From: Escherichia phage vB_EcoM_10C2_SA_NWU
Direction: 5' to 3' (one strand)
DNA: 64,000 nucleotides
Sequence record: OR062525
The position numbers and the translations under genes were made by a program. The notes beneath the pieces are model-generated. The model did not search any database, was not told the DNA's origin, and saw only the letters and a program-made list of their open reading frames with translations. Numbering within the stretch: the stretch's first letter is position 1; each line of letters starts with the position of its first letter. Positions 31,027-56,877 of this stretch are shown piece after piece.

Positions 31027-32536
31027 CACACAATTAGCTACCCGGCTAAAGTGCTGGGAGCACCTATAACACATCTTTCAACTAAATTTCCTACCACCAC
31101 AATCACTTACCTCCCACACATGACTGTTTGCTTGTTTAGTGAGCAGTCATGCCTTGACATTCTTGCCTATCCTGATAAAATTAAGTTCTTCTCTTTTCTT
31201 TTACCGAGTAATTCGGGTTTTCTGTTCTCTTCGGTTTGAAGGGGTATGGAGATACACCTGAGTGAACAGGGTGAACAACCGAACCATTGGCTATGGCATT
31301 AGCATGGCGAAGCGGACGGGTGACGAAAGAGGGGCCGGAGGACACCAGTCACTGCCATATGGTATATGGGTGATAACCTGAAGAGTCTGAATAAGTGTTT
31401 AAGTACCAGTCAGAGGAAAAGGTGAATGGTAGCCGAAGGGGGAGGGGGGTTTCTTGTATCTTTAATTTGTATATTATGTATACACTTGTAAACCAATATC
31501 ATCTGAATCTGTTTACCACACAAAGTGGATAGAGACAAATATCACCTATTAAACTTGAATTATTTATAGAAAATACCACAACACCGCTTAAGTCTTTGAT
31601 TTTACACACAAATCCTACAGATATTCACCCTCCATATTTAACATACTTGTAACATATTCCATACTCTACCTGTCTGATCAATTTCCCCAACTACATCCCC
31701 ATATTTTCCCTGTCTGTACTACCCCTGCCCCGCCGGGAGTCCCGTCATATCTGGCTTTCCAGCAAATATCACACCCACAAATATCATTGCCTGAAGAGGG
31801 TTTCATCCCATAATACCTGCCTTACCTGAAGAGCGCTTCATACACCACGTAAATTTTTTAATTGACCTCCCCCTGCCCCGCCGGAGAGGTTGGCTTTTCC
31901 CACACAGACCTGAAGAGTCAGCCAGAAATATCTGAATAGGCCCAATTCTACCACGATTTTGACCTGACCTACAGGGAGGCCCGAAGGGTCTAGCTTTCAG
32001 CTAGAGTCCTTGCAGGACCTACAGGAGCGCTGCCAGGCGGACGGAATGGGAATACTTCTCATTCTTATAACAATTCTCAAATATCGAGGCAGTGAGAGAA
32101 ATTAATAGGCCAGGCCGTTCACACAGTGGCACAACATTTGCAACCTATTTTGTGTGGATGAATGAGAATACCTATCATTGTGAGAACTGTTATCATTACG
32201 GGCAATTTAACATAATACCCATTATGCGCACCACTGGCGATACATACAGGGATTGATAACATGGGTTACTGTTTACGCACATAACAATTATATTTCTTAT
32301 TATTTGTGGGGGATATAGTTAGCAGCCGATAGATTAGATATTGACCTGCGGACTTCTGACCGTCTAGACGTCTAAACGCCCACACAGCAAGGGTTATACA
32401 TACATCACTGAATGTAAACAGGACTGCAAAAATGCTACCATACAAGCTTGTAAATTTTTCATGTAGCACTTGACAAAGAGGAGAAAAACTTGTCTGACAT
32501 AATGGTGACACAATATGACATAATTGACATGCCTGA

Positions 32537-32632
32537 CTGTTTACGCTATTACTATTCACGCTCTTACTGTTTACATGCTTAATGGTTTACATGACCAATA
32601 GTTTACATAGCTAACTATTTACATTGAAATGA
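32537..32632. repeat. tandem array of about 16-bp imperfect direct repeats (core GTTTACAT)
   Basis: GTTTAC/ATTTAC at 32569, 32585, 32601, 32617 with exact 16-bp spacing, plus copy at 32539. Confidence 0.6.
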
Positions 32633-32663
32633 TAAGCCATGACATTCGTTTGCATGAAAACAA

Positions 32664-32693
32664 TTAACAAGTTAACAATTAACAAGTTAATAA
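32664..32693. repeat. tandem 8-bp repeats TTAACAAG/TTAACAAT (about 4 copies)
   Basis: TTAACAAGTTAACAATTAACAAGTTAATAA. Confidence 0.6.
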
Positions 32694-32698
32694 TCTAT

Positions 32699-32850
32699 GA
32701 CATAATATAAAAGCAGGGCAACTATTAGAAGATCTATAGTTGCCTTGCTTGTTATGTCATGATTAACTAAATACAAGGCAACTATGATCTGATTAATAGT
32801 TTGCAGACAAACTATCACGGGGGTGATGGTTACTGCTTTTATATTATGTC
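32699..32850. repeat. perfect 18-bp inverted repeat pair flanking GGCAACTAT palindromic sites
   Basis: GACATAATATAAAAGCAG (32699-32716) and reverse complement CTGCTTTTATATTATGTC (32833-32850); GGCAACTAT/ATAGTTGCC copies between. Confidence 0.6.
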
Positions 32851-33546
32851 GCGACTCCGTCGCGCCATGCCATTCGTTTGCATAGTTGCCTTATTGTTAC
32901 AGGTAAAATAATTACATTATTAATTATTTCTTATCTTTCTCTTAGTCATCTAATGATTCCAGTCAGTATAGTAATGTACAGTAAACATTAGACGACTAAA
33001 GATTTCTCTGTTTATGATAACTCATCGTGATAATTTCGGACTGTTTACGAAAAATGTTGACACCTGAGCTGATTTATGTTATGCAGTTTACACGAATAAT
33101 TATTTTATGCAGGTATTGACTATTCCGTTATTCTGTGGTTGGAATAAATACTTTGCAGGCTATAGAATGGCGTGCGTACGTGAATTCTGAGATCTGGCGG
33201 CTATAGTTATACTCGATTTTTCGCGTAGAACACGCTTTCGATGCTGTGTAAGTGTATGACTTATAAAGATTTTTAGTTGTTGACAAGATATTGGATATGT
33301 GCATCAGGTTAAAATTTGTGCAATAGCGGCATTACGTGCACTTTTGGGAGAGAAAACGGGTAAAAATGGACTTGCTACCACACAATGAAAAATTATGCAA
33401 TAGTTATTTTCCATGTATATTTGTACAGTGTGTGGGATTGATGGCTAGTCAATTATTCCACTTACCAGGCTGGGCCGTTTGTGGTAGGAGAAATACAGAC
33501 AAAAAGAAAGGGGCCTTTTAAAGCCCCTGATAGTTTAGTTAAGAAA

Positions 33547-34706: not shown

Positions 34707-34924
34707 AGTGTTTTCCTCTCTTCTGGTTGTTGTGTGGGCACCTTTGCCCCTTCAAGATAAATGTTACCCCACCCCCTGGCAGATGTCAACGGTTTTTATA
34801 GTTCTTATATGACAGGCAGGCCTGGTGATTGTCTCCCCCTGTTCCCAAGTGCCGCCCGTTTAATAAGAATAGCAAAAGGGGCCGAACAAGTCAACCCCAA
34901 AATCAGTACCAAAACACTTTTTAT

Positions 34925-42809: not shown

Positions 42810-43205
42810 TTAGTAAGTTTTCAGTACTTTCCCATCCAGTCTGTCAAGCTGGATCTCGATAGCTGCAGAAAACCTATTATAAACCACATCGCCCAGGGAG
42901 TCCAGCCAATCTATGACGTTATACACCTGCTCTTTATTCTTGCAAGTCCGGATCCGTTTCATTACGTAAGACGGATCAATATTAGTGCTCCCGTTGTTGT
43001 GGTCATGCGCCTGGCCTGCTGCACTGGTTATAGATTTTACAACCACCTGAAAGGGCTTTAAGGTGCCTTTTGCGTTCATCTCACGCGCTTTTGCGGCGCG
43101 GTTGTTATATGTTACACAACGGCGGCAAATGTTGACCAAATGCATATCAATAATTTTTTCATCGTTTGCCAGTTCGTTCATGATGCGGCGTACGTTCTTA
43201 TTCAT
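42810..43205 (-). CDS. hypothetical protein
   Basis: ORF preceded by conserved leader hairpin. Confidence 0.45.
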   Translation of the reverse strand: MNKNVRRIMNELANDEKIIDMHLVNICRRCVTYNNRAAKAREMNAKGTLKPFQVVVKSITSAAGQAHDHNNGSTNIDPSYVMKRIRTCKNKEQVYNVIDWLDSLGDVVYNRFSAAIEIQLDRLDGKVLKTY

Positions 43206-43295
43206 GATCTTTTTTCCTTTGTGTTGGCGGGAAACATTCCCGCCTTTTGTGTCTAGTTTACTTTAATTTTGCAGCGTGTCAATAATTTTTTTTTT

Positions 43296-43694
43296 TTATT
43301 CGTGGGCGCATGTCACAATGTGCTTTTTATACCCCAGGTGGGCAGCAAGTGCTGACAAAAACTCATCTTCATAGATCCAGCCGTTGGCAGTGATCCCCAT
43401 AGCATTTAACGCGCTTTCAAGTGCTGCATTGGCCTTATCATAACCGTGACCGCTCGCCTTGCCACCAGTATAACCGTACTTATTATTCTTGTTGTCGTGT
43501 ATCCAAAAAACGCAGTAGTTAGTGTTACCGCTGGCGGCGGCATAGTACCGGATCTCCGCTACTTCGTGCAAATTATTATCATCGTCTAGGCCCACCAGAT
43601 TATAAGCCTTGTAAAATCCACGATCACGGCGGCAGTTCTTGACATCAGAAAAAGAAAAGTCCGCATTATCAAAATTAAAGGTAGTGGTTTTCAT
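43296..43694 (-). CDS. hypothetical protein
   Basis: co-directional ORF. Confidence 0.4.
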   Translation of the reverse strand: MKTTTFNFDNADFSFSDVKNCRRDRGFYKAYNLVGLDDDNNLHEVAEIRYYAAASGNTNYCVFWIHDNKNNKYGYTGGKASGHGYDKANAALESALNAMGITANGWIYEDEFLSALAAHLGYKKHIVTCAHE

Positions 43695-44033: not shown

Positions 44034-44216
44034 TCAACCATTAGTTAAAATTATTTTTGGGTAGAATTCTCCAGCCGCCGCCCCTGCCAGGTTAACCATC
44101 ATTTTTTCGTACTCTTCTTTATGTTCCAACGCTCCCGCCATAGCCTTTTCAACCAGGGCGATAGCCTCAGCGTCATTAATAGCTACATTTTCCAGGGGGA
44201 TCATATTACCTTCCAT
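44034..44216 (-). CDS. hypothetical protein
   Basis: co-directional ORF. Confidence 0.35.
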   Translation of the reverse strand: MEGNMIPLENVAINDAEAIALVEKAMAGALEHKEEYEKMMVNLAGAAAGEFYPKIILTNG

Positions 44217-44410
44217 TTTTGTACCTCCTCTTCAATTGTTACCTATCCTATAGCATAGGCCCACCAGGTTTGCAAGCCTTCATTATCTCCTACCTGGTCA
44301 GTTAGGCCCTGCCAGGCTGGCCCCGCCAGGTTGCAGCGGTCAGCGCATCAGGTTAGAATTTTTTTTTTTTGAAAAGTGTTGACAGCGGCCCCGCCAGGTG
44401 GCACAATATA

Positions 44411-44650
44411 CCTATCGAAAGGACGGCAGGCACCGGTGACGGGGGAGACAACCACCGGGGATGGGCGCTGCATAAAATGAGAACGGTTATCATTATCATT
44501 TAAAAATTTATGCAAAAAATCCTTGCTTTCTTTGTCCTGTGTGATACTATAATAACAAGCCGGGGCAACAGGGGCCGGGAGACAATCACCGGGCCTGCCC
44601 GTTATTCTGCAAACGAGAATGATTATCATTCAAAATTCTAAATGAGAACT
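44411..44650. repeat. two tandem homologous units of about 95 bp (candidate small RNAs or protein-binding modules)
   Basis: GGGAGACAA[CT]CACCGGG and GAGAA-N-TTATCATT shared by unit 44411-44510 and unit 44555-44650. Confidence 0.5.
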
Positions 44651-45235
44651 CCTCGCATTTAATAAATTTAATTAGCATGCTAATTACCCTCCGTAACAAT
44701 TTCCTATAAAACAGTATCCCATAAAATATTCCCATATAGAAATTTTAAAAATCCATTTCTGAAAACGAAAAATCGATTTCGTCCCCAAAAATTTCAGGTC
44801 GAGATCCGGAACGATTTCCAGAAAATCCGATTCAGAAAACGAAAAACAGATCGAGTACTGAGAAATTTATCGAGAAAAATTTTCAGAAAATCCAAGCCAT
44901 GAAATGAAAAGTAGATCGAGTACTTGGAAAGCTGCACCGCAACTTCAAGATAGTGGTTAGATTGTTACCATAGAAGGTTAAGGGCAAGTGGAGGAAGTTC
45001 TAGTAGAGGGAGGTTAGCATGTGCGGGAAATCTATAATGGTGGCCTGGAATATGGTGCAAACGATAGGATGAGTTATTCAGCTTGTCGCGCCTACTCTGA
45101 AAAATCCATTTTAGTTTTCGATCCATTTTCTGATTTTCTAAGAATTTTAAAATATCCAGCCCGGTGAAATATCAAAAGGAGGAAATCCATTTTAGAAATC
45201 CCCCTTACACTTGATATGCCAGGAATTTTCAAGTA

Positions 45236-45565
45236 TCAGCTGTCTTTGTTTTTAGGTTTGTACATGCGTAGAGGTATGGTCTTTGTAACATTCCATTTCC
45301 TCAATCCTTCCCAGCTCCAGTTGTGGGCGTGGTATCCGGTTATGCATGCACTACTGGAGTGATCGTAAGCATAAGAGAACGCTAAGCGCACCAGGTGGGG
45401 CCAGTCCTTCCATGGTTGTGGACCGTAAGCTTTTCTCCAACACCGACACAAACTAAATGTCTCAAGGATAGGAAGGATAACAAACCCATACACTGTCACC
45501 AAAATAGTCAGTGCAATGATTGTCAGGAACACATACCCTGCAGTTGAAATGATGATCTCTGTCAT
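45236..45565 (-). CDS. membrane protein (hypothetical)
   Basis: N-terminal hydrophobic stretch IIISTAGYVFLTIIALTILVTVYGFVILPIL. Confidence 0.4.
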   Translation of the reverse strand: MTEIIISTAGYVFLTIIALTILVTVYGFVILPILETFSLCRCWRKAYGPQPWKDWPHLVRLAFSYAYDHSSSACITGYHAHNWSWEGLRKWNVTKTIPLRMYKPKNKDS

Positions 45566-54180: not shown

Positions 54181-54447
54181 TAGTTCAGGTAGGTCGTTAA
54201 GCTACCCCGCACCATTACGTGCATAGCCATACGTTTTCACGTAGGATCGGACCATCTCATATTCCTATGATAAGCAACCACAGGAATCCTCCCATTTAGA
54301 CCGCACTTGCTGGTCTACTTCCTTTCGGAATGGCCTCTGAGCGTTCGCTCTTTTGAGCGCTTCGTTGCGGATTACCTTGCCATAAGGTTTAGGCTTCCCG
54401 CAGTTAAAGAGGTTATTCGACATAGATTACTCTATGAAGCCACAATG

Positions 54448-56877
54448 TTATTTATGGTAATAAATAATACGACGAACACCTTCATCGTACCACCCACGCT
54501 TCACCATCTGGTGGTGCATGAGTATTCCAACTAAGTCACACAACGATGCACCGCCATTTTGTTGGTATGCATTAAGTAAAGAGTGTTTAGATCGGGTCCA
54601 GATAGCATGACCATCAAAAGAGTAGATAAACTTCTTACCTGTTGCTTCCCAGAATTTCTCCAGATCCTCTTTGCGCCCCTTAAGACCTGGGTTGGCATCC
54701 CAGAGTGCATCGATTACCCTTTGTCCCAACTCTGGGGAGATGTCCAGCATATCTGCAACTTTATCTTTTTGTGCCCCGTACATAACCCCATACGTGATAG
54801 GTTTACCGTCGTTACGGGACACCTCTCTGCCTGCCACTTTTGTATATGCCTCAGCATTGTTTTGGTGTGCGTCTCCGTTACTTACAACATCATAATACAA
54901 GCCGTTGTCGAACTCAAAGGCACCCCAAGCCCCGATAAGCTGCTCTAAGTTGGACCCGTCAATACCGATCTCAAAGTATCCCGGAGGAACACCCCACAGA
55001 CTACGCATCTCTTTACCCATAACCACTTTAGGAGATGGTTTAGGCATGTTTGCACAAATACTGTGTTTCTGTCTGGAAGTGTTTGTTAATCCAGAGCTTT
55101 TAGCAGGAAGCTTATGGTCAATCTTCAAACGTGGGTGATTAAGAAGACCAGTATCAACCTTATCCTCCTTGATTGGATCAAGGACCGATCTGCGGTTTCG
55201 CAATGATAACCACAAGACGATATCTTTAGCCATCTCTCCGTTCAATTTTTCAAGATTTGGGCATAGGTGTCCAAACGTATCTTTCAGTTGCGGAGAAGTA
55301 ATAAGTGCCCTGGCTTTTCTACGTATTTTCCCGAATACTTCCTTTTTAATCCTTTCGGAGTTAGGAAAGCTTCGGAACTTGTGCACGGTTGTCTGGAACT
55401 TAGCATCAGTTTTGTTCCAGAAGTTGATAATTAGGTCACAATACTCTGACTCCAAAAGCTCGTCCATATATGCATATACTCGTGCATCAACATCTGCATC
55501 AGGTAAAGCTTTCTTCTTGCTGTCTTTAGTTACATCTTTAGTTCTCCACATTGTTGGTAACCATCCGGCCCCGATAAGGTATCTTTTGATATCATCCTGA
55601 TTACTTATCTTCATAGGAACACGGCAGTCTGGCATTCTCTTCTGCCGCAAATCCTGCATTGCTTGCCGCATCAGGTTTTCTGGAAGAGGTTGTGGTTTAG
55701 CAGACCCTTGCAAGTAGCCACGTAAAAACTCAGGCATCATTTCTGGGTCACTGCACCCCATTTCAATACACCACTTAGCGCCAATTTTGCTAACATCCCC
55801 AGATGTTGTAAATGCCCGTTTTGGAGGCTCTTTGAACTCAAGGGCTTCCATATCAACAGGGTAACCAAGCTTATCTTTTAACCACTTCCAGCCGTTGTTT
55901 GAAATCGTACCATCCTGGTTAAAAGGTTTCTCTGGGAATTTCGGTCTTTGTGATTGAGACAGCTCTTTTAGCGGCAACTGAGGCTCCACACGATCCGCGA
56001 TCTCTTTCATCCAAGCATCACAACGATCTCTGAGCGCCAACGCACCATCTATGTCGAAATATACCCCTTGTCGGGCCTGCAATTCCATTAAAAAATGTTG
56101 CAGCATCCCTCTACGTAGTGCATTTTTCCAGTTAATCTTTTTAAAGCCGTGTGGTTTCTCTTTCTCTGGATCATACATAAAGTTCTGCATGTCAGATTTA
56201 CCATAAAACACACCTTTAGCCTCTGCTGTCAGTTCCTTCCATAGAAGTTCTTGAATGATAACGTCTTCAAATACACGATCAACATACTTCCACAGAGGTA
56301 AATTTCTCCAGTCATCAATTTTAACCTTCTGGTTTCCTAAAGCGTACCCCCACGCCATTAGGCCATGAGGACCTACCTGCTGCATACGTTTTGTAACAGG
56401 ATTGTATACAGAATCAGGGCATCCTTTAGGTAACGGTCTGTCGGGCCATAGTATACGACTCATTGGCAGAGTGTCGAACAGGTTCACCTGATGATTATTG
56501 ATTGTCCCCATACACTTGGGATCACGGAACATATCAAAATGAATACCAGACAGCTTCTCCATCAAGATAAAGTCATAACTAAAACAGTTGTGACAACTTA
56601 ATGATGTGGGTGACCAATCGGAGTTCCCGGTTAACCACCATTCAAGCTGGCTGAAATCCGCAATACGGACAGAGCAGCTAGGATAGATATCTTGCTTTGC
56701 CAGCATAAATTGTTTTGCTTTTTCAACCTCCTCTTCACTGTAATGAGATCTATCATTGATAGGCAAAAACAACATAAAATTATTTTTATTCAACTCTTTA
56801 AACAGGCCACAATGGTAGTAAAGATCTTCCTCGTCCAGAAGACCTGAGGCCTCAAAGTCAAAATTCCACATACTCAT
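54448..56877 (-). CDS. family A DNA polymerase with N-terminal 3'-5' exonuclease domain
   Basis: Exo I FDFEASG, Exo II HNCFSYDF; motif A-like GIDGSNLEQL, motif B-like RNDGKPITYGVMYG, motif C variant WYDEG; AAGGAGAA RBS. Confidence 0.6.
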   Translation of the reverse strand: MSMWNFDFEASGLLDEEDLYYHCGLFKELNKNNFMLFLPINDRSHYSEEEVEKAKQFMLAKQDIYPSCSVRIADFSQLEWWLTGNSDWSPTSLSCHNCFSYDFILMEKLSGIHFDMFRDPKCMGTINNHQVNLFDTLPMSRILWPDRPLPKGCPDSVYNPVTKRMQQVGPHGLMAWGYALGNQKVKIDDWRNLPLWKYVDRVFEDVIIQELLWKELTAEAKGVFYGKSDMQNFMYDPEKEKPHGFKKINWKNALRRGMLQHFLMELQARQGVYFDIDGALALRDRCDAWMKEIADRVEPQLPLKELSQSQRPKFPEKPFNQDGTISNNGWKWLKDKLGYPVDMEALEFKEPPKRAFTTSGDVSKIGAKWCIEMGCSDPEMMPEFLRGYLQGSAKPQPLPENLMRQAMQDLRQKRMPDCRVPMKISNQDDIKRYLIGAGWLPTMWRTKDVTKDSKKKALPDADVDARVYAYMDELLESEYCDLIINFWNKTDAKFQTTVHKFRSFPNSERIKKEVFGKIRRKARALITSPQLKDTFGHLCPNLEKLNGEMAKDIVLWLSLRNRRSVLDPIKEDKVDTGLLNHPRLKIDHKLPAKSSGLTNTSRQKHSICANMPKPSPKVVMGKEMRSLWGVPPGYFEIGIDGSNLEQLIGAWGAFEFDNGLYYDVVSNGDAHQNNAEAYTKVAGREVSRNDGKPITYGVMYGAQKDKVADMLDISPELGQRVIDALWDANPGLKGRKEDLEKFWEATGKKFIYSFDGHAIWTRSKHSLLNAYQQNGGASLCDLVGILMHHQMVKRGWYDEGVRRIIYYHK

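What the first reader, a model, noticed from the sequence alone, without database searches (positions are those of the whole stretch)
44217..45235. Second noncoding island: two tandem homologous ~95-bp units plus AAATCCATTTT repeats
Units at 44411-44510 and 44555-44650 share GGGAGACAA[CT]CACCGGG and GAGAA-N-TTATCATT blocks, each preceded by a promoter-like sequence (TTGACAGCGG...CACAAT; TATAAT at about 44546). The GAGAA..TTATCATT motif recurs twice at 32163-32200 in the other noncoding region. From 44740 to 45200 the motif AAATCCATTT(T) recurs at least four times (44748, 45102, 45121, 45183), and a 12-nt T-run sits at 44359-44372. This looks like paired small-RNA genes or a multi-site binding platform for a regulator.
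Basis: seen in the sequence. Interest (0 to 1): 0.5.

Follow-up and report, generated by a model that had tools for sequence, protein, structure and literature searches.

The report
Conserved phage control island, Fur-like boxes
This 1-kb gene-free stretch of an rV5-like E. coli phage is a strongly conserved control region with promoter-driven leader elements, binding sites that look like those of the host iron sensor Fur, and a set of long repeats; it has not been described before and its function is still unproven.

Summary
The two units are homologous (local score 26 against 8.8±1.7 in shuffles). GAGAA-N5-ATCATT occurs 4 times exactly (0.06 expected), only in the two noncoding islands. AAATCCATTT occurs 3 times exactly, all inside this island.

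New findings:
- **Third copy.** A covariance model finds a third copy of the 55-nt unit at 34804-34860 (-). All three copies start 0-14 nt after a sigma70-like -10 hexamer.
- **Conservation.** The unit and its two-locus, inverted arrangement about 10 kb apart recur across Vequintavirinae and Stephanstirmvirinae. Rfam and E. coli genomes give no match.
- **Structure.** Covariation does not support a single hairpin. What is conserved is mainly the primary sequence.
- **Fur-like boxes.** A matrix built from 11 published iron boxes ranks the two sites here first and second in the 64-kb window. All 14 related loci carry 1-5 such boxes just after the unit, commonly 29 bp apart.
- **Downstream blocks.** Three iteron-like 62-nt repeats spaced 65-74 bp apart and an AAATCCATTT block follow. 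Both have counterparts in other Vequintavirinae genera.
- **Selection.** The core (44376-44885) varies less than the flanking genes, and the ORFs annotated inside it are not coding.

Best reading: a noncoding hub in which early-type promoters fire antisense into operators bound by host Fur, next to a possible origin. Function is inferred, not shown.

The parts
44258..44403 (.). Divergent-promoter zone. It holds four copies of the GC-rich motif GGCCC[CT/A][GA]CCAGG(T) at 44258, 44305, 44319 and 44387; a fifth lies in the neighbouring gene at 44080. A minus-strand promoter-like site, TTGCAA-17-TATAGG, precedes the gene that starts at 44216.
   Evidence: Repeat family D2, motif scan and sequence reading. 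Within the genus, 44256-44315 is poorly conserved while 44316-44345 is conserved.
44359..44370 (+). T12 run (A/T tract) just upstream of promoter P1, in the position of an UP element.
   Evidence: The length of the run varies by indels between relatives.
44379..44407 (+). Promoter P1: TTGACA-17-CACAAT with TG before the -10. The context AAAAgTGTTGAC matches the early-promoter consensus AAAA(N3)TGTTGAC reported for Certrevirus.
   Evidence: Consensus scan, 10 of 12 matches; PMC7344957; 0.01 variable sites per position within the genus.
44422..44476 (+). Copy 1 of the conserved 55-nt leader element, containing GGGAGACAACCACCGGGG.
   Evidence: Covariance model R1, 45.5 bits, E = 7e-12.
44476..44497 (.). 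Fur-box-like operator 1 (AATGAGAACGGTTATCATTATC).
   Evidence: The 19-mer at 44479-44497 scores 21.9 bits with a matrix built from 11 published iron boxes. This is the best score in the whole window; the training sites score 14.0-26.6.
44523..44553 (+). Promoter P2: TTGCTT ... TATAAT. Its counterpart in other genera has a canonical 16-17-nt spacer.
   Evidence: Sequence reading. The generic promoter scan did not call it because of the 19-nt spacer.
44554..44610 (+). Copy 2 of the conserved leader element (GGGAGACAATCACCGGGCCTGCCCGTTATTCTGC). This is the copy that is conserved across genera.
   Evidence: Model R1, 60.8 bits. BLAST identity of 70-88% to Phapecocta-, Mydo-, Seuna-, Certre- and Henunavirus and to Serratia phage Kashira, while the flanks do not match.
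44612..44659 (.). Fur-box-like operator 2 (44612-44633) and a degenerate box 3 (44641-44659), 29 bp apart.
   Evidence: The 19-mer at 44615-44633 scores 18.2 bits, second best in the window. No variable sites at 44616-44645 within the genus.
44730..44930 (.). Three iteron-like direct repeats (62-nt aligned copies at 44730-44791, 44804-44865 and 44869-44930, spaced 74 and 65 bp start to start). Copies 2 and 3 end in AGATCGAGTAC. The surrounding block 44663-44930 is AT-rich (GC 0.32).
   Evidence: Repeat family D1; GC content. Other Vequintavirinae carry three roughly 70-bp repeats, most ending CGATCGAG[AT][AC]C (Henunavirus differs), and Phapecoctavirus carries different repeats. Most of the block is conserved within the genus.
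44931..45095 (.). Unconstrained spacer. The ORFs annotated over this stretch in GenBank records are probably spurious.
   Evidence: 0.23-0.46 variable sites per position, the highest in the 3-kb alignment. Annotations are listed.
45096..45200 (+). Conserved AT-rich block holding AAATCCATTT (45102, 45183; a third exact copy is at 44749), GATCCATTTT (45120) and two AAATATC motifs.
   Evidence: The homologous block GAAAACCATTTCGAAAACCATTTCG plus CAAATATC repeats is present in other genera. 0.02-0.10 variable sites per position.
34804..34895 (-). Third copy of the leader element (34804-34860) with its own promoter, TTGACT-17-TATTCT (34894-34866). It lies 9.7 kb from copy 2 and in the opposite orientation.
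   Evidence: Model R1, 57.1 bits; motif search; sequence. Conserved in 240 phage records, with the same inverted arrangement 10-12 kb apart in Phapecoctavirus (one search compared).

Best explanation
The island is a conserved, non-protein-coding control hub inside the minus-strand early gene cluster of rV5-like phages.

**Proposed mechanism.** Two host-type (sigma70) early promoters, P1 and P2, fire on the + strand, which is antisense to all neighbouring genes. Each transcript begins with a conserved leader element of about 55 nt. From about +55, each transcript runs into one or more 19-bp palindromes that have the sequence properties of operators for the host iron sensor Fur. I propose that iron-loaded Fur occupies these boxes. 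Bound Fur would then gate how far the antisense, untranslated transcription proceeds into the downstream AT-rich block of three iteron-like repeats, which I regard as a candidate replication origin or other protein-assembly site. The bound boxes would also soak up Fur as phage DNA multiplies.

**What is shown:**
- the anatomy of the island;
- that it is noncoding;
- purifying selection on its core;
- conservation across subfamilies;
- Fur-box-like scores of the palindromes.

**What is inferred:**
- that the promoters fire;
- that Fur binds;
- that the repeats act as an origin.
For: - **Identity and context.** The window is 100% identical to Vequintavirus vB_EcoM_12A_SA_NWU. The island lies between small minus-strand ORFs.
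- **Noncoding.** In the annotated 93-aa ORF, variable sites fall evenly across codon positions (11/13/12). It carries non-triplet indels. In 9 of 10 loci from other genera every equivalent reading frame carries stops (one frame is open in PVP-SE1).
- **Constraint.** 44376-44885 and 45096-45185 vary at 0-0.16 sites per position (most 30-nt bins at or below 0.11). Much of the flanking coding sequence varies at 0.1-0.3, and the internal spacer at 0.23-0.46.
- **Leader element.** There are exactly three covariance-model hits in the 64 kb, and each starts 0-14 nt after a sigma70-like -10 hexamer. The element is conserved in more than seven genera of two subfamilies while its flanks are not.
- **Fur likeness.**
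  - A matrix built from 11 published iron boxes (list in PMC10665472) ranks 44479-44497 (21.9 bits) and 44615-44633 (18.2 bits) first and second in the window.
  - In 200 random sequences, a best score of 18.2 or more occurred in 3.5%, and two such sites never occurred.
  - All 14 related loci have 1-5 boxes of 11-23 bits immediately after the element. Overlapping hits shifted by 6 bp are common, and neighbouring boxes are commonly 29 bp apart.
  - The paralogous third-copy locus also carries boxes in SSBI34, CR9 and FKP3.
  - The consensus of 33 distinct sites is AATGAGAAT-N-ATT(C/A)TCATT. It keeps the G, the T's and the AT-rich centre that Fur contacts (PMC4506495). AATGAGAATCATT also occurs in the published iron box GATAATGAGAATCATTATT.
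- **Repeats.** Three 62-nt direct repeats spaced 65-74 bp apart lie in a block with GC 0.32. The three-repeat layout is conserved in other genera, with lineage-specific sequence in Phapecoctavirus.
Against: - No transcription or binding data exist. Literature searches found nothing on this island.
- The boxes lie downstream of the promoters, at about +55 to +105, and overlap no convincing promoter. Classic Fur repression works by overlapping the promoter.
- The left half-site is almost always TGAGAA (G in 29 of 33 sites) rather than the Fur consensus TGATAA. A different, possibly phage-encoded, protein could therefore be the real ligand.
- The leader element shows no significant covariation for one hairpin (65% of cells paired; 172 of 500 shuffles do as well). 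Its RNA-level role is therefore unproven.
- For the origin idea: there is no DnaA box, no GATC enrichment and no GC-skew turn at the island. The roughly 280-aa neighbour gene of other genera has no homologue in the window.
Confidence: 0.4

Rival explanations
1. The units are two (in fact three) genes for short trans-acting small RNAs. A conserved single-stranded stretch, GAGACAAUCACC, would pair with a host or phage mRNA, and the palindromes would be RNA hairpins or weak terminators within those RNAs.
For: - Each element follows a promoter and has strongly conserved sequence.
- Each sequence can individually fold into an imperfect GC-rich hairpin followed by a U-rich stretch, UUAUUCU.
- Several changes keep pairing through G-U, which works only on the + strand, and one pair changes G-C to A-U in Kashira (sequences).
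- In other genera the first promoter drives another conserved element, unit A, with some compensatory changes.
Against: - Covariation for a common hairpin is not above shuffles.
- The fold z-scores are modest, -1.2 and -2.1.
- No intrinsic terminator is found on the + strand.
- There is no Rfam family.
- The palindromes vary in the spacers between them but not in the protein-contact positions, which is typical of DNA sites.
Confidence: 0.2
2. The palindromes are operators for a phage-encoded (or other non-Fur) DNA-binding protein, and the resemblance to Fur boxes is convergent. The island would then be an early/middle transcription switch run by the phage's own regulator.
For: - The left half-site carries G where Fur prefers T in 29 of 33 sites, and the motif is asymmetric.
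- The boxes are often regularly spaced at 29 bp and do not overlap promoters.
- The motif also occurs in the other noncoding island, at 32045-32197.
Against: - The sites outrank every other 19-mer in the window under a matrix made only from bacterial iron boxes, and they score inside the range of the training sites.
- The motif is the same in phages of seven or more genera whose early genes are otherwise very different, which fits a conserved host protein.
- No candidate regulator gene is linked to the island; the flanking proteins have no known domain.
Confidence: 0.2
3. The island is primarily the phage's replication origin. The iteron-like repeats would bind an initiator, the AT-rich blocks would unwind, and the tandem promoters would supply an activating or primer transcript, as at the T7 primary origin or the T4 origins. 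The Fur-like boxes would be accessory.
For: - Three long direct repeats lie in a block with GC 0.32, followed by a second AT-rich repeat block.
- The repeat sequence changes with phage lineage while the layout is kept.
- Two tandem promoters point into the repeats.
- The region is under stronger constraint than the neighbouring genes.
- The rV5 paper could not locate an origin (PMC3606486).
Against: - There is no GC-skew inflection.
- There are no DnaA boxes and no excess of GATC.
- No initiator gene has been identified.
- A second island with related parts lies 10 kb away, and another at 31.5-33.1 kb.
- Large lytic phages may rely on recombination-dependent replication.
Confidence: 0.25
4. 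The region is ordinary coding sequence, namely the hypothetical proteins annotated in GenBank (for example the 93-aa ORF at 44348-44629 on the minus strand and the 48-aa ORF at 45021-45167 on the plus strand).
For: The ORFs are open in Vequintavirus genomes and are annotated in several records.
Against: - Substitutions show no codon periodicity (11/13/12), and indels are not multiples of three.
- The nucleotide sequence is conserved in other genera, where in 9 of 10 loci all three equivalent frames are closed.
- The + strand ORF lies in the least conserved stretch.
Confidence: 0.03

Closest known systems
Fur boxes (iron boxes) of Enterobacterales, e.g. the aerobactin iucA operator GATAATGAGAATCATTATT
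   Same: - A 19-bp AT-rich palindrome with the 7-1-7 layout (TGAnAAT-N-ATTnTCA).
- Scores of 18-22 bits under a matrix built from published iron boxes.
- Clustered sites, including overlapping hits shifted by 6 bp.
- The G, T and AT-rich-centre contact positions are kept.
   Different: - The sites lie in a virulent phage genome.
- They sit about 55-105 nt downstream of the promoters rather than over them.
- The left half-site is almost invariably TGAGAA.
- In many relatives the arrays are spaced at 29 bp.
- Binding has not been tested.
Transcription-activated phage origins: the T7 primary origin (two tandem promoters followed by an AT-rich region) and the T4 origins with a promoter plus an unwinding element or iterons (from general knowledge, not tested here)
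   Same: Tandem promoters produce untranslated transcripts that run into an AT-rich, repeat-containing noncoding block inside the early/replication gene region.
   Different: - The promoters here are of host sigma70 type.
- The transcripts begin with a conserved 55-nt element followed by Fur-like boxes.
- There is no evidence of initiation at this site and no skew signal.
Promoter-proximal leader RNA sites such as lambda nut or HK022 put (from general knowledge)
   Same: Short conserved elements lie immediately downstream of several promoters in one genome. They occur in both orientations and on divergent transcription units.
   Different: - There is no sequence similarity to these sites.
- No supported hairpin was found.
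- No partner protein is known.
- This is an analogy only.
Pseudo-ToxI noncoding repeats of the rV5-like phage PhiTE (PMC3475682)
   Same: A noncoding, repeat-containing RNA locus in a related phage.
   Different: - The PhiTE locus lies elsewhere, next to tRNA and terminase genes.
- The island has no similarity to ToxI (score 10 against a null mean of 11).
- The repeats here are 62 nt long (spaced 65-74 bp) and only 61-76% alike.

Membership tests
Fur operator (iron box) | Match to the 19-bp consensus GATAATGATAATCATTATC, or the 7-1-7 form TGATAATNATTATCA, at the level of known sites | tested here: met
   The two sites score 21.9 and 18.2 bits; the training sites score 14.0-26.6. They are the top two of all 19-mers in 64 kb on both strands. 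Two such sites were never seen in 200 random sequences.
Fur operator (iron box) | Key contact bases are kept: the G read by Arg57, the T's read by Tyr56, and an AT-rich centre with a narrow minor groove | tested here: met
   Across 33 distinct phage sites: G at position 4 in 30 of 33, AA at positions 7-8 in 32-33 of 33, T at positions 12-13 in 30-33 of 33, and C at position 16 in 31 of 33. The contacts are described in PMC4506495.
Fur operator (iron box) | Operator overlaps the -35/-10 of the regulated promoter | tested here: not met
   The boxes lie at about +55 to +105 relative to the predicted starts of P1 and P2. Box 1 ends 25 nt upstream of the P2 -35. No promoter-like site overlaps a box.
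Fur operator (iron box) | Metal-dependent binding by Fur and iron- or fur-dependent expression | not testable with these tools
   This needs gel shift or footprinting, Fur ChIP, or a Fur titration assay.
Trans-acting small RNA gene | Own promoter and a defined 3' end (intrinsic terminator) | tested here: inconclusive
   Promoter-like sites are present and conserved. No terminator-like site is found on the + strand of the island; there is only a U-rich UUAUUCU after a possible stem.
Trans-acting small RNA gene | Conserved secondary structure supported by covariation | tested here: not met
   With 25 distinct sequences and 14 pairs, 65.3% of cells pair against 64.8% in shuffles (172 of 500 do as well). 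The covariation score is 0.166 against 0.152.
Any Rfam family | Covariance-model match | tested here: not met
   Nothing relevant up to E = 10 in the island, and nothing up to E = 1 in five related loci.
Iteron-type replication origin | Three or more direct repeats next to an AT-rich region | tested here: met
   Three 62-nt repeat copies, spaced 65-74 bp apart, at 44730-44930. GC is 0.32 against 0.43 for the window. The layout is conserved in other genera.
Iteron-type replication origin | DnaA boxes, GATC clustering, or a strand-skew switch | tested here: not met
   There is no TTWTNCACA in the island. GATC occurs 4 times per kb against 5.5 per kb in the window. Cumulative GC skew runs through the island without turning.
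Iteron-type replication origin | Adjacent initiator gene; initiation mapped to the site | tested here: inconclusive
   The flanking proteins have no known domain. The roughly 280-aa neighbour gene of other genera is absent from the window. Initiation mapping cannot be done here.
Type III antitoxin-like RNA repeats (ToxI / pseudo-ToxI) | Tandem near-identical repeats of 34-45 nt similar to a known antitoxin | tested here: not met
   The repeats are 62 nt long (spaced 65-74 bp) and 61-76% alike. They have no similarity to ToxI. The PhiTE pseudo-ToxI locus is a different locus.

The most novel reading that the evidence does not exclude
A whole lineage of virulent phages (Vequintavirinae and Stephanstirmvirinae) carries arrays of operators for the host iron sensor Fur in conserved noncoding hubs. 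The phage would then do one of two things. It could read the host's iron state to gate antisense or origin transcription. Alternatively, as its DNA multiplies, it could titrate Fur away from the host chromosome and so switch on host iron uptake and the iron-sparing response for its own iron-dependent enzymes. The 55-nt leader element that always precedes the boxes would be a new cis-acting RNA or DNA signal of this system.
Probability: 0.3. Interest if true: 0.75.

Novelty: new variant of a known kind. Interest (0 to 1): 0.55.

Why it matters
- rV5-like phages are widely used for E. coli O157, Salmonella, Klebsiella, Cronobacter and Pectobacterium biocontrol. Their regulation and replication origin are nevertheless unknown; the rV5 genome paper could not find an origin.
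- This island is one of the most constrained non-coding stretches of the early region, and it is mis-annotated as hypothetical proteins in many records.
- If host Fur really binds here, it would link iron status to the programme of a strictly lytic phage. I found no report of this in the searched literature.
- The idea is directly testable with simple experiments, and it bears on phage efficacy in iron-poor environments such as the gut or infected tissue.
- The island also supplies three defined sequence families for comparative work: the leader element, the palindrome and the long repeats.

Tried and rejected
- **Rfam.** The whole window at gathering scores gave only a group I intron elsewhere. 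The island at E up to 10 and five related loci at E up to 1 gave nothing relevant.
- **Host origin.** There is no similarity to 5,426 E. coli genomes.
- **Pseudo-ToxI idea.** The PhiTE escape locus is a different locus, and ToxI does not align to the island.
- **Single-hairpin RNA model.** RNAalifold on a MAFFT alignment found almost nothing. A hand-derived two-helix model, realigned with a covariance model, gave covariation no better than shuffles.
- **Second hairpin (GUUAUUCU with AGAAUGAU).** Not consistently kept; KaOmega gives a C-A mismatch (by inspection).
- **Pattern scan of IMG/VR** with a 14-base pattern. It returned mostly chance hits and only a few real contigs.
- **Fetching relatives through the flanking 109-aa protein.** This gave only 2 loci.
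- **Flanking proteins.** No Pfam domain apart from a NADAR domain in Phapecoctavirus, and the PHROGs families are of unknown function.
- **Origin markers.** DnaA boxes, GATC density and GC skew are all negative.
- **Coding reading of the annotated ORFs.** Rejected.
- **Promoters formed by neighbouring palindromes.** The spacing would leave a 15-nt spacer, which is too short (by inspection).
- **Mini-ORFs starting at the ATG inside the palindromes** (MRTVIIII* and MIIIQNSK*). There is no ribosome-binding site, and the lengths vary as a by-product of the palindrome. Not pursued.
Full report
**Identity and setting.** The 1019-bp region is 100% identical to Escherichia phage vB_EcoM_12A_SA_NWU. 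It is 85-100% identical to 121 records, almost all of them Vequintavirus (rV5-like) phages. In the window, + strand genes run to about 31.3 kb. A first noncoding island lies at about 31.3-33.1 kb, and minus-strand genes fill the rest. The finding lies inside that minus-strand cluster of small early-type ORFs. It sits between the gene starting at 44216 and the gene ending at 45236. ARAGORN finds no tRNA in the window. Rfam finds only a group I intron at 54228-54463.

**Check of the observation.**
- The two units align far better than chance: local score 26, against a null of 8.8±1.7 and a maximum of 17.
- GAGAA-N5-ATCATT has four exact copies, all on the + strand and all in the two noncoding islands. 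Shuffles give 0.06.
- AAATCCATTT has three exact copies in 64 kb, all within the island.
- The T12 run is at 44359-44370.
- P1 (TTGACA-17-CACAAT, 44379-44407) is called by the promoter scan. The TATAAT of P2 is at 44548-44553.

**Noncoding and constrained.** GenBank records annotate small hypothetical proteins inside the island.
- In the largest, the 93-aa ORF at 44348-44629 (-), variable columns fall 11/13/12 over the three codon positions.
- Its indels near the T-run are not multiples of three.
- In 9 of 10 loci from other genera, all three equivalent minus-strand frames carry stops although the DNA is conserved.
- A six-genome Vequintavirus alignment shows 0-0.16 differences per site over 44376-44885 and 45096-45185, with most 30-nt bins at or below 0.11.
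- Much of the flanking coding sequence shows 0.1-0.3, and the internal spacer 44946-45095 shows 0.30-0.46.

The island's core is therefore under stronger constraint than its neighbouring genes.

**The unit is a conserved promoter-proximal element with three copies.** A sensitive BLAST shows that only about 60-160 nt around unit 2 is recognisable in other genera, at 70-88% identity. These include Phapecoctavirus, Mydovirus, Seunavirus, Certrevirus, Henunavirus and Serratia phage Kashira. Reading 12 such loci shows the same order everywhere: a sigma70-like promoter with a 16-17-nt spacer, then a conserved start (CAT[AG]GCG...), then GGAGACAAWCACCGGnCCTGCCyGyyATTC.

A covariance model built from 20 copies finds exactly three hits in the window: 44554-44610 (+, 60.8 bits), 34804-34860 (-, 57.1 bits) and 44422-44476 (+, 45.5 bits). 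The third copy has its own promoter, TTGACT-17-TATTCT. It is conserved in 240 records. In Phapecoctavirus it again lies 10-12 kb from the island copy and in inverted orientation (one search compared).

In other genera the first promoter of the island drives a different conserved element, here called unit A (GCCACCCCACGGCGAAAAGGCGGGGCTAAC...). Unit A is absent from the window and has no Rfam match. Unit 1 of the window is thus a Vequintavirus-specific copy of the unit-2 element sitting in unit A's place.

**Is it a structured RNA?** Individual copies can fold into an imperfect GC-rich hairpin. Some changes keep pairing through G-U on the + strand only. A common two-helix model, however, pairs 65.3% of cells against 64.8% in shuffles, and 172 of 500 shuffles do as well. 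No terminator-like site follows on the + strand. What is conserved is primary sequence, so an RNA-level role is possible but not demonstrated.

**The recurring motif is Fur-box-like.** In relatives the GAGAA..ATCATT motif expands to a 19-bp palindrome repeated 1-5 times directly after the element, commonly 29 bp apart. The consensus of 33 distinct sites is AATGAGAAT-N-ATT(C/A)TCATT. That is the 7-1-7 Fur layout, TGATAAT-N-ATTATCA, with G in place of T at one left-half position.
- A matrix built only from 11 published iron boxes (list in PMC10665472) ranks 44479-44497 (21.9 bits) and 44615-44633 (18.2 bits) first and second among all 19-mers of the window. The training sites score 14.0-26.6.
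- In 200 random sequences a best score of 18.2 or more occurred in 3.5%, and two such sites never occurred.
- All 14 related loci show 11-23-bit hits at the same place, often as pairs shifted by 6 bp.
- The paralogous third-copy locus carries a box in SSBI34, CR9 and FKP3. It does not in the window.
- A degenerate third box lies at 44641-44659. The other island has three to four weaker boxes at 32045-32197.
- The bases that Fur contacts are kept: a G, adjacent T's and an AT-rich centre. Fur is known to tolerate much degeneracy (PMC4506495).

Against a classic Fur operator, the boxes lie downstream of the promoters and overlap none of them. The near-invariant left-half G could also point to another ligand.

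**Downstream blocks.** After the boxes comes a block with GC 0.32 (44663-44930) containing the three long repeats. Copies 2 and 3 end in AGATCGAGTAC. Seuna-, Mydo- and Certrevirus and phage Kashira have three repeats of about 70 bp, with AAAAATTTTTTCG in most and ends of the form CGATCGAG[AT][AC]C; Henunavirus repeats end differently. Phapecoctavirus has different repeats in the same place. Next comes an unconstrained spacer, and then a conserved AT-rich block with the AAATCCATTT and AAATATC motifs. Other genera carry GAAAACCATTTCGAAAACCATTTCG plus CAAATATC repeats at that position. No DnaA box, GATC excess or GC-skew turn marks the island. The flanking proteins have no known function.

**Interpretation.** The anatomy fits a noncoding hub. 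Early-type promoters fire antisense to the surrounding genes, and each transcript starts with a conserved leader element and meets Fur-like operators before reaching an iteron-like array. I think the most likely mechanism is that host Fur occupies the boxes and gates this transcription, and that it is titrated by them as phage DNA accumulates. The repeat array would be a candidate origin or assembly site. I put about 0.4 on the promoter-leader-Fur module, and about 0.25 on the origin role taken separately. The rivals are true small-RNA genes (0.2), a non-Fur ligand for the boxes (0.2) and coding sequence (0.03).

**Prior knowledge and novelty.** Searches of the paper library found no description of this island, of Fur boxes in these phages, or of transcript maps for them. 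The components are known kinds: sigma70 promoters, iron boxes and iterons. Their conserved combination in virulent phages, and the 55-nt element itself, appear to be undescribed.

Noticed in passing
window 54228-54463 (-): Group I intron (Rfam RF00028, 64.7 bits, E = 4e-14). It lies just upstream of the large 809-aa minus-strand ORF at 54448-56877, among short ORF fragments, which suggests an intron-split gene.
   Followed up: no
window 31345-33130: A first noncoding island of about 1.8 kb lies where the + and - gene clusters converge.
- It shares the Fur-like palindrome with the studied island (32045-32063, 32161-32179, 32179-32197).
- It has three exact CAAATATCA copies (31536, 31763, 31778).
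- It also has CCCCTGCCCCGCCGG twice, CCTGAAGAG three times, and a run of GTTTACA-type repeats at 32530-32640.
- Several GenBank relatives appear to start their numbering inside the equivalent region.
   Followed up: partly
L011 1795-1925, L012 1826-1945, L003 2372-2490 and equivalents: In all non-Vequintavirus relatives the island's first promoter drives a conserved element of about 120 nt, unit A (GCCACCCCACGGCGAAAAGGCGGGGCUAAC...GGAAGGUGGAUCGCCGGUAG).
- Its loop CCCC could pair with the downstream GGGG, like a pseudoknot; this changes to CCAA/UUGG in Raoultella phage Ro1.
- A variable hairpin shows compensatory changes.
- There is no Rfam match, and it is absent from the window.
   Followed up: partly
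window 37220, 41176, 44083, 44260, 44308, 44322, 44390: The GC-rich motif GGCCC[CT]GCCAGG(T) recurs. Five copies fall within 320 bp at the left edge of the island. It lies in the spacer of P1 and, in inverted form, next to -35-like hexamers of minus-strand promoter-like sites. In Certrevirus the two divergent promoters are inverted copies with the same GC-rich spacer.
   Followed up: partly
L003 2075-2341 (+), L007 1575-1841 (+), L010 1528-1794 (+): In Phapecoctavirus and Serratia phage Kashira, an 88-aa + strand gene (phrog_19316, function unknown) sits just upstream of unit A. It is the only + strand gene in the minus-strand cluster. The window has no counterpart.
   Followed up: partly
GenBank records MG065646, MG065647, MG065658 and similar: Sixteen records named 'Campylobacter phage', with Campylobacter jejuni given as host for 15 of them, are 95-97% identical to this E. 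coli Vequintavirus region. The host label looks doubtful.
   Followed up: no
L140 1290-1660, L142 1290-1680 (third-copy locus in SSBI34 and CR9): In Certrevirus-like phages the third-copy locus is itself a noncoding stretch of about 400-500 nt. It contains a duplicated ACCGGACCTG, a Fur-like box, and further promoters whose transcripts begin CACGTAGGGC followed by a hairpin. This suggests that 5' leader hairpins are a general feature of early transcripts in these phages.
   Followed up: no
window 43286-43297: A second 12-nt homopolymer run (A or T) lies at 43286, near the gap between the ORFs at 42810-43205 and 43296-43694. Together with the T12 run at 44359, these are the only runs of 9 or more A/T in the window.
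   Followed up: no
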